This document shows, piece after piece, positions 26,337 to 63,900 of a DNA stretch of 64,000 nucleotides. Numbering within the stretch: position 1 is the first letter of the stretch; every line of letters begins with the position of its first letter. A program made the position numbers and the translations under genes. The notes beneath the pieces were generated by a model, which was not told the origin of the DNA, made no database searches, and saw only the letters and a program-made list of their open reading frames with translations. The DNA lies in the NCBI GenBank assembly GCA_000146465.1, contig CP001945.1; one strand, given 5' to 3'.

Positions 26337-27221
26337 CTATCTCCTTCGGGAAGAAGCCTTTTCATTCGAATACTCGTAGTAACATCCAGCCCCCAACCGG
26401 TCCTTAATCTCTTCAAACTTCTCTGTAAATGCATTTGCATCTTCTTCATTGGCATATTCTATAAATCCATATCCCCTATTTCTTTTGTTTTCTCCGTATA
26501 TCACTCTTATCTCCTTCGGCTTACATTCGACGTCTGCAAGTATTTTCCTTATTTCGACAATCGAATGGGCCTTGTTCAACTTTCCTAAAAAGAATCTTGT
26601 CTTGTTTTCCCAAGGCTTCTTCATCCTCTCTATATAAACAGGCTTGTTGTTCATTACAATTTCCTCTTTGATCACAGCTTTTTTCTTGAAGGTTATAATC
26701 GCTTTACCCGTAGATATGTTATCCTTGTTCTTTTTTATTCTTATTCTCTCTATCTCTCCGTATTTTTCAAACACTTTTGAAATAGACTCTTCATTTTCTT
26801 TATAAGAGAGGTTGGTGAGTATGTATTTGTTGTCCAGATATCTTCCGCTGCTTTCTTTCTTTTCCTTCCCTTGCTTTCTGTTTGCTTTCATGTCTACAAG
26901 TGCATGTTCTTTGCTAGGATACTTCAAGATAAAATGGCCTTTTCCGTTTTCTATTGACTTGAAGTTTTTGAATGCTTCTTTTATGTCCTTCAAAGTCAGA
27001 CTTCCCTTTATAACAAGAGAACATGTGGCCTCATCAAATTTAATGGCTTCAATATTCTTCTTCTTTTCCCTCGATATCTCATCCTTTTCTTTTTTTCCCT
27101 TAGAGCTTTCTTTCTTCTCCTTGCAACTTCTTGGGATATCTTCCCCCTTCAAACGTTTCTTATTCCCTTCCTTGCATTCAAGCTTACTCTTTCCTCTTCC
27201 TTCCTTTTTCATGCCATTCAT
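26337..27221 (-). CDS. Lys-rich RNA-binding protein with RRM domains (nucleolar Nop12/nucleolin-like)
   Basis: RNP1-like RGYGFIEY and RFFLGKL motifs; extremely K/E-rich N-terminus. Confidence 0.5.
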   Translation of the reverse strand: MNGMKKEGRGKSKLECKEGNKKRLKGEDIPRSCKEKKESSKGKKEKDEISREKKKNIEAIKFDEATCSLVIKGSLTLKDIKEAFKNFKSIENGKGHFILKYPSKEHALVDMKANRKQGKEKKESSGRYLDNKYILTNLSYKENEESISKVFEKYGEIERIRIKKNKDNISTGKAIITFKKKAVIKEEIVMNNKPVYIERMKKPWENKTRFFLGKLNKAHSIVEIRKILADVECKPKEIRVIYGENKRNRGYGFIEYANEEDANAFTEKFEEIKDRLGAGCYYEYSNEKASSRRR

Positions 27222-27379
27222 ACTATATCTTCTAATGGGTTAATATATATCCAAAGAAATAAGACTTCCTACATCCGCCGCATTAAAAGATTTATTAGAT
27301 ATGCTTTGTAATGCCTTCACCTACTTACAGAGCACTCCTCCCTACCCGTTAAAAGTGGCAAAAAATTTACCCTGAACAG

Positions 27380-31166: not shown

Positions 31167-31457
31167 TCAAACCGCAACAGTCGGAGCCTCTTGGCTATTG
31201 ATGGACTCGTCGGTAAAAACCAGCTCTTCCCTCAGCCTGGACTCTCCAAGTGGAGTTAGAAGGAAGTATGAGTGTCTCCACACGTGAATTTTCTGGACAT
31301 ATCCATAAGAGATCATGGTCTTCATAAATGCCTTCAGTTGCAGGTTGGGAATTTCGAGATCCTTATGATTTCCAAGAACAGTGTCCTCAAGAAGCAAAGC
31401 TTTTTTCTCGAGTAAACGTCTCTTTATCTTGTACTTATTTACTGTCGGTACTAGCAT
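31167..31457 (-). CDS. Ribosomal protein S10e
   Basis: MLVPTVNKYKIKRRLLEKKALL...KAFMKTMISYGYVQKIHVWRHSYFLLTPLG is collinear with eukaryotic RPS10 (MLMPKKNR...[24 protein letters not shown]). Confidence 0.75.
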   Translation of the reverse strand: MLVPTVNKYKIKRRLLEKKALLLEDTVLGNHKDLEIPNLQLKAFMKTMISYGYVQKIHVWRHSYFLLTPLGESRLREELVFTDESINSQEAPTVAV

Positions 31458-31556
31458 TTCTCTACAAATTAGCCTTGATACATAACCAAATCACTTACCT
31501 TCTTTAAAGCCCTCAAGTAAATTTTTTTTTATTGTTTATTCGGCCAAGATACTTGA

Positions 31557-31804
31557 ATGGCACCTCTCCTGCCCCCGATGATCAATCCAAAGCTATTGAT
31601 GGTGACTGCAACAACAGCATATGTGTTTGTATTTTACACACTGGCTATAAGAGTAAGTTTTGTCCACGTAATTTCTAGCCATTGTTTCATAGTCCAACTG
31701 CAGCCGAAGATGTCCTAATTACCTTGTCTTCGATTGTCTTGTTTAGTGCCCTCCTGATCCACGCTATTTTAGGGTTTGAAGAGGAAAAGACAAAGCATAT
31801 GTAG
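31557..31804 (+). CDS. Candidate small two-TM protein with a putative 26-nt spliceosomal intron (31653-31678); speculative
   Basis: ATG 31557. Exon 1 ends ...YTLAIR at 31652; GTAAGT at 31653; TAATTT-containing tail; AG at 31677-78. Exon 2 (PLFHSPTAAEDVLITLSSIVLFSALLIHAILGF...) runs to a stop at 31802-04, giving about 73 aa; unspliced it is a 53-aa ORF (31557-31718). Weak FxYT...PF resemblance to DPM2-like small membrane subunits. Confidence 0.2.
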
Positions 31805-31833
31805 ACATTCAGCATATAATGCCCGAAGTACTA

Positions 31834-32178
31834 CTAGATAGCATCGGTATTGAGATTCATCCACCTCAAGTACTGCTCGGACATAGAGTGTATTTCGATT
31901 CCGACCACTTGAGGAGCTTCATATGGATGGTCTTCCGCCATGAACTCTTGGATTTTAACAAACAAGGAGGAAAAGGTCTTTGCAGCCAATTTGTACTCTG
32001 TCTCTCTTTTAACACTTCCATCCCAAGAGTAAACGGAGGTTATCTTGGATATTTGGCAGCATGCAGCAAGCCTTCTATTGACTAACTCGTACGAAGCTTT
32101 TTCAGCTGATTCTCGGGTTGGATATGTTGTGAATACAACGAATGGTTTCCTCTGTGGGATATTGTCTGGATGGTGCAT
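31834..32178 (-). CDS. CutA divalent-cation tolerance protein homolog
   Basis: C-terminal MAEDHPYEAPQVVGIEI matches the CutA1 signature (HPYEVPE); about 114 aa from the first ATG. Track start 32190 is TTG. Confidence 0.7.
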   Translation of the reverse strand: MHHPDNIPQRKPFVVFTTYPTRESAEKASYELVNRRLAACCQISKITSVYSWDGSVKRETEYKLAAKTFSSLFVKIQEFMAEDHPYEAPQVVGIEIHSMSEQYLRWMNLNTDAI

Positions 32179-38566: not shown

Positions 38567-38639
38567 AGCATGGTGGCGCAATGGAAGCGCGCTGGGCTCA
38601 TAACCCAGAGGTTGTGTGGTTCGAATCCCACCCATGCTA
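38567..38639 (+). tRNA. tRNA-Met (initiator type), anticodon CAT
   Basis: AGCATGGTGGCGCAATGGAAGCGCGCTGGGCTCATAACCCAGAGGTTGTGTGGTTCGAATCCCACCCATGCTA. A1:U72 acceptor end, GGG/CCC anticodon stem, CAT anticodon and GTTCGAATC T-loop closely match eukaryotic initiator tRNA. Confidence 0.85.
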
Positions 38640-40623: not shown

Positions 40624-40695
40624 GGCTCGGTGGTCTAAGGGTATGATCTCCGCTTTGGGTGCGGAGGGCTCCAGGTTCAAATCCTGGCCGAGCCC
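40624..40695 (+). tRNA. tRNA-Pro, anticodon TGG
   Basis: GGCTCGGTGGTCTAAGGGTATGATCTCCGCTTTGGGTGCGGAGGGCTCCAGGTTCAAATCCTGGCCGAGCCC is nearly identical in architecture to eukaryotic tRNA-Pro, with anticodon loop TTTGGGT. Confidence 0.85.
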
Positions 40696-52183: not shown

Positions 52184-53041
52184 ATGAAGCTTGAATTTTC
52201 CAACGGCTTTGAAGACTTGGCATTTGTCTTAAAATACTTCAATGCCGATTCCAGCCTGGAAAAGGTGGAAAGCGGGTTAAGGCTTACCGATGGGGGAGAA
52301 GAATACGTGGGACTAGACAACGTATTGGCTTTTTTGTACAGAACTTACGAGCCAGGACACAACAATAAAAGTATCAAAGAAACAAAGAAATTGAGGGAAA
52401 GTCCAGAAGTGAGGAAGGTAGAGGAAAGTATATCAAGTCTTGTATCATTTTATGGGCTGTATCGTCAGATGATTACACAAGGCATATTAAAAAATAAGGT
52501 GTTTATCGACCAAATGGTTGAGCATATTAGGCCAAGAATGAGTCTGGACTCTGATTTTCAACTGCTAGACATACAGGTTGGAGAGATAGTAGACATTGGC
52601 GATGTTCAAGGACTTGATAAGCTTTATTCTGAGAGGGTTGTTGCAAAGGAAGAGATAAGAGTTTTAAGTGGGCTGAAAGGCTATGTAGAAAAAGAACATC
52701 TATTAGGAAACAAATTCCTCTTTGTTACCAACATGAAGCCAGCCAAATTCAAGGGAGAGACTTCTGAAGGAATGATTCTATGTGGGAAGGATAAGGATGG
52801 AAAGATCGAGCCTATTTTGATACCAAAAGAGATACAGAATGGGGCCAGGTTAGGACTAGAAGGATTTGAAATGCTTCTTAATGACTTTAGTTCTGGAAAG
52901 GTTGACATGAGAAAGAGTGGATATGCCCATGCTCTAGAATCGTTTAAGATAATAGACCATTTCCTCACTTTTAAGGGCATAAAGGTCACTTGCGAAGGAA
53001 AGTTCATCAAAACTCATACTTCCGATGGCCTGGTAAGTTGA
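52184..53041 (+). CDS. Arc1p/EMAP-II-like tRNA-binding protein (aminoacyl-tRNA synthetase cofactor)
   Basis: C-terminal OB-fold tRNA-binding domain LDIQVGEIVDIGDVQGLDKLYSERVVAKEEIRVLSGLKGYVEKEHLLGNKFLFVTNMKPAKFKGETSEGMILCG; GST-like N-terminus. Confidence 0.6.
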   Translation: MKLEFSNGFEDLAFVLKYFNADSSLEKVESGLRLTDGGEEYVGLDNVLAFLYRTYEPGHNNKSIKETKKLRESPEVRKVEESISSLVSFYGLYRQMITQGILKNKVFIDQMVEHIRPRMSLDSDFQLLDIQVGEIVDIGDVQGLDKLYSERVVAKEEIRVLSGLKGYVEKEHLLGNKFLFVTNMKPAKFKGETSEGMILCGKDKDGKIEPILIPKEIQNGARLGLEGFEMLLNDFSSGKVDMRKSGYAHALESFKIIDHFLTFKGIKVTCEGKFIKTHTSDGLVS

Positions 53042-53126
53042 TTAAATCGACTTCAAGCGATGTAACTAAATAGTGTTTTCCTTGATTCTAAGATAAATAA
53101 AATTTCCAGCCTGGGGCGAGGAATAG

Positions 53127-63705: not shown

Positions 63706-63900
63706 ATGGCAACAAATATAAATTGCAAGAAGAAGTGGCATCCAAGTAGATACGAAACACAGATAAGAGTGAAAGAAGCCGAACAGGCCATAGAAAAAAA
63801 CAAAACCCAGGAAAATACAAGAAAAGAACTTGGAAGAAGAGAAACCCTTGAGTTTGAAGTTCAAAAGGAAAAAGCCGAGAGAATGCAGTGGATGCTTTAA
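63706..63900 (+). CDS. CWC25/CIR-N-terminal-domain-like small protein (pre-mRNA splicing factor family)
   Basis: MATNINCKKKWHPSRYETQIRVKEAEQAIEK matches the CWC25/CIR N-terminal signature (KK.WHP....N.E.VW.AEQ); charged coiled tail; ATG preceded by CCCC. Confidence 0.45.
   Translation: MATNINCKKKWHPSRYETQIRVKEAEQAIEKNKTQENTRKELGRRETLEFEVQKEKAERMQWML

What the first reader, a model, noticed from the sequence alone, without database searches (positions are those of the whole stretch)
31458..31833. Unannotated 375-bp gap contains a small ORF with a canonical GTAAGT...AG mini-intron
The only long unannotated interval in this window has an ATG at 31557 followed by a 2-TM ORF. GTAAGT begins exactly at a codon boundary (31653), and a TAATTT-containing tail ends in AG (31678); this 26-nt element has the size and motif content of microsporidian spliceosomal introns. 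Splicing joins ...YTLAIR to PLFHSP... and extends the ORF to 31804 (73 aa, two TM helices), ending 30 bp from the convergent CutA gene. This tidy fit argues that the splice is real. The spliced junction creates an FxYT...PF motif faintly like DPM2-type dolichol-phosphate-mannose synthase subunits. A CWC25/CIR-N-like gene (63706-63900) suggests some splicing machinery is retained.
Basis: inference. Interest (0 to 1): 0.55.

Follow-up and report, generated by a model that had tools for sequence, protein, structure and literature searches.

The report
Known mini-intron in small microsporidian gene
[quoted passage not shown] The gene and its splice are already in the public annotation (Eint_041345), so the finding is correct but ordinary.

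Summary
The window is Encephalitozoon intestinalis ATCC 50506 chromosome IV. The sequence facts hold: GTAAGTTTTGTCCACGTAATTTCTAG (31653-31678) sits on a codon boundary, and removing it joins ...YTLAIR to PLFHSP..., with the ORF ending at 31804.

GenBank/RefSeq already carries this spliced product as Eint_041345 (66 aa, "uncharacterized protein"). Annotated orthologues are ECU04_1357 in E. cuniculi, which has RNA-seq signal, and M896_041830 in Ordospora colligata.

I found the intron at the same codon in all 8 related genomes or assemblies I could fetch. Lengths are 23-27 nt, the GTAAGT/TAATTT/AG signals are kept, the interior diverges, and both exons are under purifying selection.

- The start codon is most likely ATG 31578 (66 aa), not 31557 (73 aa).
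- The DPM2 resemblance is not supported.
- The gap is not unannotated in current records.

I also tested VMA21 and EMC6; neither holds, so the protein's function stays unknown.

One by-product deserves mention. On the opposite strand, a second perfect intron-like element (31498..31462, 37 nt) lies 4 nt upstream of the RPS10 start codon. It is conserved in 7 of 8 relatives and cleanly missing in one, which marks it as a 5'UTR intron. I could not establish whether it has been described.

Interest: low.

The parts
31572..31576 (+). CCC-like transcription signal (CCCCC) 1 nt upstream of the conserved start codon of Eint_041345
   Evidence: Seen directly in the sequence. A CCC/GGG run lies 0-8 nt upstream of the conserved ATG in all 8 orthologous loci. 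The role of such signals in microsporidia is taken from PMC10815200.
31557..31577 (+).
   Evidence: The upstream ATG is not conserved: L004 has ATA, and L005 and Ordospora have no in-frame upstream ATG. The annotated product starts at 31578.
31578..31652 (+). Exon 1 of Eint_041345 (25 codons, MINPKLLMVTATTAYVFVFYTLAIR; first hydrophobic helix)
   Evidence: Matches P0004 residues 1-25. dN < dS wherever dS could be estimated. AlphaFold model places a helix at residues 4-27.
31653..31678 (+). 26-nt spliceosomal intron GTAAGTTTTGTCCACGTAATTTCTAG, phase 0. The 5' splice site is 31653-31658, the branch motif TAATTT is 31669-31674, and the 3' AG is 31677-31678.
   Evidence: The public protein lacks these 26 nt. 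Position and signals are conserved in 8 of 8 loci while the interior diverges. The motifs match the E. cuniculi consensus (PMC2483917).
31679..31804 (+). Exon 2 of Eint_041345 (41 codons + TAG; PLFHSP...EEEKTKHM; second hydrophobic helix; C-terminal KxKxx)
   Evidence: dN 0.23 vs dS 1.61 between E. intestinalis and E. cuniculi. Modelled helix at residues 31-65. KxKxx is present in Eint, Ecun, L004 and L005 only.
31462..31498 (-). 37-nt intron-like element GTAAGTGATTTGGTTATGTATCAAGGCTAATTTGTAG in the 5' leader of RPS10. Its 3' AG is 4 nt upstream of the RPS10 ATG, and it contains an upstream ATG (31483-31481).
   Evidence: It is conserved, with signals kept, in 7 of 8 loci and cleanly absent in L005.
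31499..31512 (-). GGG-like signal (31512-31510) and the 11-nt putative non-coding first exon of RPS10
   Evidence: The signal lies 6-11 nt upstream of the 5' splice site in all intron-bearing loci. After removal of the element, the signal-to-ATG distance (7-15 nt) matches the intron-less L005 (12 nt).
31167..31457 (-). RPS10 coding sequence (96 aa), divergent neighbour
   Evidence: Exact match to ADM11423.1, 40S ribosomal protein S10, E. intestinalis ATCC 50506.
31834..32178 (-). CutA-like gene (114 aa), convergent neighbour
   Evidence: Exact match to ADM11424.1. Pfam CutA1 E = 1.1e-29.

Best explanation
The gap holds a real, already annotated protein-coding gene, Eint_041345 of Encephalitozoon intestinalis. 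It has two exons (31578-31652 and 31679-31804) separated by a 26-nt U2-type GT-AG intron of the standard Encephalitozoon kind.

Inferred splicing mechanism:
- Transcription starts just downstream of a CCC-like signal.
- U1 snRNA pairs with GUAAGU at the 5' splice site.
- The branch adenosine in UAAUUU lies 7 nt from the 3' AG.
- Excision restores the frame.

The product is a 66-aa hairpin of two hydrophobic helices joined by a conserved R-P-(L/F)-x-x-x-P...E loop. If the intron is retained, the frame shifts and translation ends after 53 aa.

The protein is found only in the Encephalitozoon/Ordospora group. My best guess, which is inference only, is that it is a small integral membrane protein of the ER or early secretory pathway acting as an accessory subunit. 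Its specific function is unknown.
For: Shown:
- Organism and neighbours were identified by exact protein matches.
- The spliced junction is identical to the public protein Eint_041345, which is listed on 3 contigs under four accessions from separate submissions.
- Orthologues ECU04_1357 and M896_041830 have gene spans 24 and 23 nt longer than their CDS.
- The intron is at the same codon in 8 of 8 loci. GTAAGT is kept (GTAGGT in O. pajunii), as are TAATTT and the AG. The branch-to-AG distance is 6-7 nt. The interior is divergent, and lengths are 23-27 nt.
- Both exons show dN < dS wherever dS could be estimated.
- ECU04_1357 has 118/89/92 FPKM in E. cuniculi RNA-seq (supplement of PMC3629993). 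That paper reports that all previously annotated introns were found spliced.
- The motifs match the published consensus.
- Annotated intron density is 36 per ~2.3-Mb genome, about one per 64 kb (PMC4313915).
- The model shows two helices with mean pLDDT 80, and there are two hydropathy peaks.

Inferred:
- The start at 31578.
- ER residence, from the C-terminal KxKxx.
Against: - I saw no transcript data for E. intestinalis itself. Splicing in this species is inferred from conservation and from the annotation.
- Grisdale et al. report that most E. cuniculi introns are spliced in fewer than 50% of transcripts, so much of the mRNA may be unspliced.
- The ER guess is weak. KxKxx is present in only 4 of 8 orthologues.
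- No homology to any characterised family was detected.
Confidence: 0.93

Rival explanations
1. The GTAAGT...AG element is a chance motif. The gap would then hold at most an unspliced 53-aa ORF, or only promoter and terminator sequence for the neighbouring genes.
For: The motif alone is not rare: 0.29 are expected per shuffled window. Short ORFs are abundant.
Against: Position, phase and signals are conserved in 8 of 8 loci while the interior and the length vary. Exon 2 is under purifying selection in a frame that can only be reached by splicing. Public annotations use the splice.
Confidence: 0.02
2. The gene is: translation starts at ATG 31557 and gives a 73-aa protein.
For: The ATG at 31557 is in frame with no intervening stop. 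E. cuniculi also has an in-frame upstream ATG.
Against: The upstream ATG is absent in L004 (ATA), L005, Ordospora and others. The seven extra residues are not conserved. The CCC-like signal lies between the two ATGs, directly before the conserved Met. Microsporidian 5'UTRs are very short and such signals sit next to the true start (PMC10815200; PMC3629993).
Confidence: 0.07
3. The protein is a divergent DPM2, the regulatory subunit of dolichol-phosphate-mannose synthase.
For: It has two hydrophobic helices, a small size, and a loose F-x-Y-T...P-F resemblance. Human DPM2 also ends in KKxx (sequence validated).
Against: No Pfam DPM2 or PIG-P hit for any of 8 orthologues at E <= 10. hhalign local score is 10.7 against a shuffled mean of 11.6, p = 0.62. 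It ranks near the bottom of a 16-protein panel in hhalign and hmmsearch.
Confidence: 0.03
4. The protein is a highly divergent VMA21, the ER assembly factor of the V-ATPase Vo sector. This was my own lead.
For: Similar size and two-helix hairpin. It has a C-terminal dilysine-type signal like yeast Vma21p. The top Foldseek hit of the E. intestinalis model in the PDB was 8eau_p, which is yeast Vma21p.
Confidence: 0.07
5. The protein is a truncated EMC6-like (Rab5ip family) subunit.
For: It gave the best score in my 16-protein panel. hhalign found a local match of 16 residues (TTAYVFVFYTLA vs TGLYGFIFYLLA), E = 0.0016, empirical p = 0.005 versus block shuffles. An RPLF motif is also shared with human EMC6 (sequence validated).
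Against: After correcting for 16 comparisons, p is about 0.08. The match covers one hydrophobic helix only, and the two shared motifs are not collinear without a ~20-residue deletion. There is no Pfam Rab5ip hit. No EMC subunit at all was found in E. cuniculi or N. ceranae (PMC4602282).
Confidence: 0.03

Closest known systems
Eint_041345 / ECU04_1357 / M896_041830 (annotated 'uncharacterized protein' orthologues in E. intestinalis, E. cuniculi and Ordospora colligata)
   Same: This is the same gene. The public 66-aa protein is identical to the spliced translation from Met8 onwards. It sits in the same synteny, RPS10 <- -> small gene.
   Different: No function is assigned in any record.
Short spliceosomal introns of Encephalitozoon (22-76 nt, GTAAGT 5' site, CTAAYTT branch motif; PMC3629993, PMC2483917, PMC6349667)
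   Same: GT-AG boundaries, GTAAGT, TAATTT, 26 nt, and a branch motif 7 nt from the AG. Retention breaks the frame.
   Different: The intron is in a non-ribosomal gene and lies 25 codons into the ORF rather than right after the ATG. In this it resembles the second set of 20 introns described in 2010.
5'-end introns of E. cuniculi ribosomal protein genes (compared with the RPS10 element at 31498..31462)
   Same: It is in a ribosomal protein gene, lies very close to the transcript 5' end, and has the same splice signals and size class.
   Different: It lies wholly upstream of the ATG, with no start codon in the putative first exon. The described ones usually begin in the codon after the ATG. I could not find it mentioned in the papers I could read.
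VMA21 (PF09446), DPM2 (PF07297), EMC6 (Rab5ip family)
   Same: All are small two-helix ER membrane proteins. Yeast Vma21p and human DPM2 carry C-terminal dilysine signals.
   Different: No significant sequence, profile or robust structural match to any of them.

Membership tests
Encephalitozoon-type spliceosomal mini-intron | GT-AG boundaries with the strict 5' site GTAAGT | tested here: met
   GTAAGT at 31653-31658 and AG at 31677-31678. Consensus taken from PMC2483917 and PMC3629993.
Encephalitozoon-type spliceosomal mini-intron | Branch-point hexamer TAAYTT close to the 3' AG | tested here: met
   TAATTT at 31669-31674. The branch A to intron-end distance is 7 nt here and 6-7 nt in all 8 orthologous introns.
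Encephalitozoon-type spliceosomal mini-intron | Length within 22-76 nt | tested here: met
   26 nt here; 23-27 nt in the orthologues. Range taken.
Encephalitozoon-type spliceosomal mini-intron | Retention gives a frameshift or an in-frame stop | tested here: met
   Unspliced reading stops after 53 aa. The 24- and 27-nt orthologous introns end in an in-frame TAG (sequences).
Encephalitozoon-type spliceosomal mini-intron | Same position in orthologous genes, with the flanking exons conserved as protein | tested here: met
   8 of 8 loci. dN < dS in both exons wherever dS could be estimated.
Encephalitozoon-type spliceosomal mini-intron | Spliced transcripts observed | not testable with these tools
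   No read data were available. Indirect support: ECU04_1357 is expressed, and Grisdale et al. state that all previously annotated E. cuniculi introns are spliced. The paper does not name this gene in its text.
DPM2 (PF07297) | Match to the family profile | tested here: not met
   No hit at E <= 10 for 8 orthologues. Human DPM2 control scores 2.3e-31. hhalign p = 0.62.
VMA21 (PF09446) | Match to the family profile | tested here: not met
   No Pfam hit. Yeast and human controls score 2.1e-09 and 2.4e-22. hhalign probability against the VMA21 alignment is 0.35%.
VMA21 (PF09446) | Structural similarity to Vma21p beyond a generic helical hairpin | tested here: inconclusive
EMC6 / Rab5ip | Match to the family profile, and presence of the partner EMC subunits | tested here: not met
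   No Pfam hit. There is only a 16-residue local hhalign match. EMC is reported absent from E. cuniculi (PMC4602282).
5'UTR spliceosomal intron (RPS10 element, 31498..31462) | Canonical splice signals, conservation across species, and clean absence in an intron-less relative with the flanks joined | tested here: met
   GTAAGT...TAAYTT...AG in 7 of 8 loci, lengths 29-40 nt. L005 reads GAGAAG-C-ATG with the element missing.
5'UTR spliceosomal intron (RPS10 element, 31498..31462) | Transcription starts upstream of the element, and spliced cDNA exists | not testable with these tools
   The only support is indirect: a GGG-like signal lies 6-11 nt upstream of the 5' splice site.

The most novel reading that the evidence does not exclude
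The second element, on the minus strand (31498..31462), may be a conserved cap-proximal intron lying entirely in the 5'UTR of RPS10 that has not been described. Its removal would bring the GGG-like start signal to the usual ~12-15 nt from the ATG. In 5 of 7 species it would also delete an upstream ATG, so that only spliced RPS10 mRNA is translated efficiently. In an organism where most introns are spliced in a minority of transcripts, that would make splicing a gate on ribosomal-protein output. I think the element is very likely a real intron (~0.85). The stated probability is for it being both real and not previously described.
Probability: 0.3. Interest if true: 0.35.

Novelty: already known. 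Interest (0 to 1): 0.12.

Why it matters
For the main finding, very little changes. It shows that a reader with no tools can recover a true Encephalitozoon mini-intron from sequence alone, but the gene and its splice are already in GenBank/RefSeq.

The comparative set assembled here has two modest uses. It gives an 8-genome view of how such introns evolve: signals and branch-to-AG spacing are fixed, while everything else is free. It also documents one lineage-specific intron loss, in the RPS10 leader of L005.

The small protein remains one of many conserved microsporidian membrane proteins with no assigned function. The negative results for DPM2, VMA21 and EMC6 narrow the options.

Tried and rejected
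**Protein function**
- Pfam scans of the spliced, unspliced and exon-2 products and of 8 orthologues found nothing relevant.
- PDB sequence searches with the protein and with a 3-sequence profile gave no hits at E <= 10.
- An exhaustive phmmer search of 1.84 billion representative proteins found only the E. cuniculi and Ordospora orthologues, plus two hits to long proteins (895 and 1547 aa) that I take to be spurious.
- hhalign and hmmsearch against VMA21, DPM2, EMC6 and 13 other small ER or membrane proteins, with block-shuffle controls, gave only a weak local EMC6 match. I reject it because the EMC is reported absent from E. cuniculi.

**An RNA gene in the gap**
- Rfam at E <= 1 over 31400-31900 found nothing. 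At gathering thresholds the whole window holds only two tRNAs.

**Other intron candidates in the window**
- The remaining 14 GTAAGT sites are inside long ORFs, antisense to genes, or lack a branch motif next to an AG.
- The 60-nt element at 27328..27269 (minus) has its branch-like motif 34 nt from the AG and no usable upstream ATG.

**Literature**
- Lee et al. 2010, Pombert et al. 2012 and Peyretaillade et al. 2012 are not held.
- Locus-tag searches returned nothing.
- I therefore could not check whether the RPS10 leader intron, or this gene's intron, is named in those papers.

Full report
**Origin of the window.** Three neighbouring ORFs are exact matches to proteins of Encephalitozoon intestinalis ATCC 50506 chromosome IV. 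They are Eint_041320, Eint_041330 and 40S ribosomal protein S10 (ADM11423.1). The CutA-like gene is ADM11424.1. G+C of about 40% fits the 41.4% reported for this species. Encephalitozoon species have about 36 annotated spliceosomal introns of 23-76 nt in ~2.3 Mb, roughly one per 64 kb (PMC4313915).

**The observation.** All sequence facts in the finding are correct.
- The interval between the RPS10 ORF (31167-31457, minus) and the CutA ORF (from 31834, minus) is 376 nt.
- An ATG at 31557 opens a frame.
- GTAAGT begins exactly after the 32nd codon, at 31653.
- The 26-nt element GTAAGTTTTGTCCACGTAATTTCTAG ends at 31678.
- Deleting it joins ...YTLAIR to PLFHSP... and carries the frame to a TAG at 31802-31804, 29 nt from the CutA stop.
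- Without deletion, the frame ends after 53 aa.

**Chance.** The motifs are those published for E. cuniculi: (GT)AAGT and a TAAYTT branch hexamer (PMC2483917). As a bare pattern the motif is not very rare. It occurs 0.29 times per dinucleotide-shuffled window on both strands, with P(>=2) = 0.04. The window has exactly two, and both lie in this single gap. None of the other 14 GTAAGT hexamers has the branch motif adjacent to an AG.

**It is already annotated.** A search with the spliced product returned Eint_041345, a 66-aa "uncharacterized protein" (AHL30092.1, XP_009161837.1, UTX45116.1, KAL7345982.1). It is 100% identical from Met8 onward and contains the proposed junction. An exhaustive phmmer search found ECU04_1357 of E. 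cuniculi (66 aa, 68% identity) and a 96-aa Ordospora colligata protein (M896_041830 cluster). Both are unnamed. Their gene spans exceed their CDS by 24 and 23 nt. The neighbours' consecutive 2010 accessions and the "2014 accession updates" mentioned in PMC4313915 suggest the gene was added after the first release (inference). ECU04_1357 has 118/89/92 FPKM at three time points of E. cuniculi RNA-seq (supplement of PMC3629993). That study reports that all previously annotated introns were confirmed as spliced, mostly at low efficiency. It does not name this gene in its text.

**Comparative test of the intron.** I fetched the syntenic locus from E. cuniculi (L002), O. colligata (L001), O. pajunii (L007) and four unnamed Encephalitozoon/Ordospora-like assemblies from sequencing runs (L004, L005, L006, L008). 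In all eight genomes, counting the window, a short element interrupts the ORF directly after the same (R/K) codon and before a Pro codon. The lengths are:

| Genome | Intron length (nt) |
|---|---|
| E. intestinalis (window) | 26 |
| E. cuniculi (L002) | 24 |
| O. colligata (L001) | 23 |
| O. pajunii (L007) | 23 |
| L004 | 27 |
| L005 | 24 |
| L006 | 23 |
| L008 | 23 |

- All begin with GTAAGT, except O. pajunii, which has GTAGGT.
- All contain TAATTT 6-7 nt before the terminal AG, and all diverge elsewhere.
- The three introns whose length is a multiple of three end in an in-frame TAG.
- Both exons show dN below dS wherever dS could be estimated; dS is saturated in many pairs. Between E. intestinalis and E. 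cuniculi, exon 2 has dN 0.23 and dS 1.61.
- Exon 2 can only be read in that frame if the element is removed. This is the signature of a real intron, so I regard the splice as established short of direct cDNA from this species.

**Start codon.** The Met at 31578 aligns with the first Met of all orthologues. The upstream ATG at 31557 has no counterpart in L004 (ATA), L005 or the Ordospora species, and the seven extra residues are not conserved. A CCC-like run (31572-31576) sits immediately before the conserved ATG, as it does in every orthologue (GGGG in L008). Such signals, together with very short or absent 5'UTRs, are used to place microsporidian start codons (PMC10815200; PMC3629993). The product is therefore most likely 66 aa, as annotated, not 73.

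**What the protein is.** AlphaFold2 models give two helices (residues 4-27 and 31-65, mean pLDDT 80 and 74), and there are two hydropathy peaks. Residues T12, Y15, L22, P26, P31, E35, L38, S43, H53 and L56 are invariant across eight sequences. A C-terminal KxKxx is present in E. intestinalis, E. cuniculi, L004 and L005 but not in the other four.

No known family could be assigned.
- No Pfam hit was relevant, and there was no PDB sequence hit.
Human DPM2 matches PF07297 at 2.3e-31, but the orthologues do not match at all, and the hhalign score equals that of block-shuffled controls (p = 0.62).
- EMC6 gave a 16-residue local match (empirical p 0.005, about 0.08 after correction). However, no EMC subunit was detected in E. 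cuniculi or N. ceranae (PMC4602282).

I conclude that it is a lineage-restricted small integral membrane protein. An ER or early-secretory accessory role is a guess based on size, topology and the partial KxKxx.

**The second element.** On the minus strand, GTAAGTGATTTGGTTATGTATCAAGGCTAATTTGTAG (31498..31462) ends 4 nt before the RPS10 ATG, and no ATG lies upstream of it.
- The same arrangement is present in 7 of the 8 genomes. Lengths are 29-40 nt, GTAAGTG is kept, the TAAYTT motif is kept with its branch A 6-7 nt from the intron's 3' end, and the AG lies 0-4 nt before the ATG.
- A GGG/CCC-like signal lies 6-11 nt upstream of the 5' splice site.
- In L005 the element is cleanly missing and the flanks are joined (...GGGCCTTTGAGAAG-C-ATG). 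The signal is then 12 nt from the ATG, the same distance that splicing would create in the others (7-15 nt).
- Five of the seven elements contain an ATG that would become an upstream start if the element is retained.

This pattern indicates a cap-proximal intron lying wholly in the RPS10 5'UTR. E. cuniculi ribosomal-protein introns are described as usually starting in the codon after the ATG, in genes with very short 5'UTRs. This one is therefore the usual kind, shifted a few bases upstream. I could not read Lee et al. 2010 or Pombert et al. 2012 and found no mention in the papers I could read. Its status in the literature is open.

**Other checks.**
- Rfam finds no RNA family in the gap and only two tRNAs in the window.
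- The "CWC25/CIR-N-like" ORF at 63706-63900 is Eint_041640 (64 aa, uncharacterized). It has a KKWHPSRYE motif but only a weak Pfam Cir_N score, E = 0.58. The argument is not needed, because a reduced but complete spliceosome, including U1 snRNA, is documented for Encephalitozoon.

**Verdict.** However, the gene is already known and annotated. The start codon, the DPM2 hint and the "unannotated" label need correction. Interest is low. The only possibly new item is the RPS10 5'UTR intron.

Noticed in passing
window 31462-31498 (minus strand), with 31499-31512: A second perfect intron-like element (37 nt, GTAAGT...CTAATTT...GTAG) lies 4 nt upstream of the RPS10 start codon, preceded by a GGG-like signal. 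It is conserved in 7 of 8 related loci and cleanly absent in L005, so it is probably a 5'UTR intron. It contains an upstream ATG in 5 of 7 species.
   Followed up: yes
L005 1950-2012 (Logan SRR21633403 contig): This Encephalitozoon-like genome has lost the RPS10 leader intron, and the flanks are joined almost exactly at the predicted splice junction. It keeps the intron of the small membrane-protein gene.
   Followed up: partly
L007 (Ordospora pajunii), reverse strand upstream of RPS10: The O. pajunii copy of the small-gene intron has GTAGGT instead of GTAAGT at the 5' splice site. This is the only departure from the consensus among the 8 copies.
   Followed up: no
window 31834-32178 (minus); L001, L004-L008: The CutA-like gene lies next to the small gene in E. 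intestinalis, E. cuniculi, L004 and L005 (tblastn). It is absent from that position in both Ordospora species, L006 and L008. The gene is therefore specific to the Encephalitozoon-type genomes at this locus.
   Followed up: partly
window 31790-31801 and orthologues: A C-terminal KxKxx motif (KTKHM; KAKLV, KIKPI and KRKPM in three relatives) resembles a dilysine ER-retrieval signal. It is missing in Ordospora, L006 and L008. O. colligata instead has a 30-residue Cys/Lys-rich tail that O. pajunii lacks.
   Followed up: partly
window 27269-27328 (minus strand): A 60-nt GTAAGT...CTAAT...TAG element lies in the intergenic region upstream of the 294-aa gene at 26337-27221. The branch-like motif is 34 nt from the AG and there is no upstream ATG, so it is probably chance.
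   Followed up: partly
window 63706-63900 (plus strand): Eint_041640, a 64-aa uncharacterized protein with an N-terminal KKWHPSRYE motif reminiscent of Cir_N/CWC25. Pfam Cir_N scores only E = 0.58.
   Followed up: partly
window 38567-38639 and 40624-40695 (plus strand): Two tRNA genes. These are the only Rfam matches in the window at gathering thresholds.
   Followed up: no
window 53033-53073 (plus strand): A GTAAGT overlaps the stop codon of the 285-aa ORF at 52184-53041 and is followed 35 nt later by an AG. It has no TAAYTT motif and would barely change the product, so it is probably chance.
   Followed up: no
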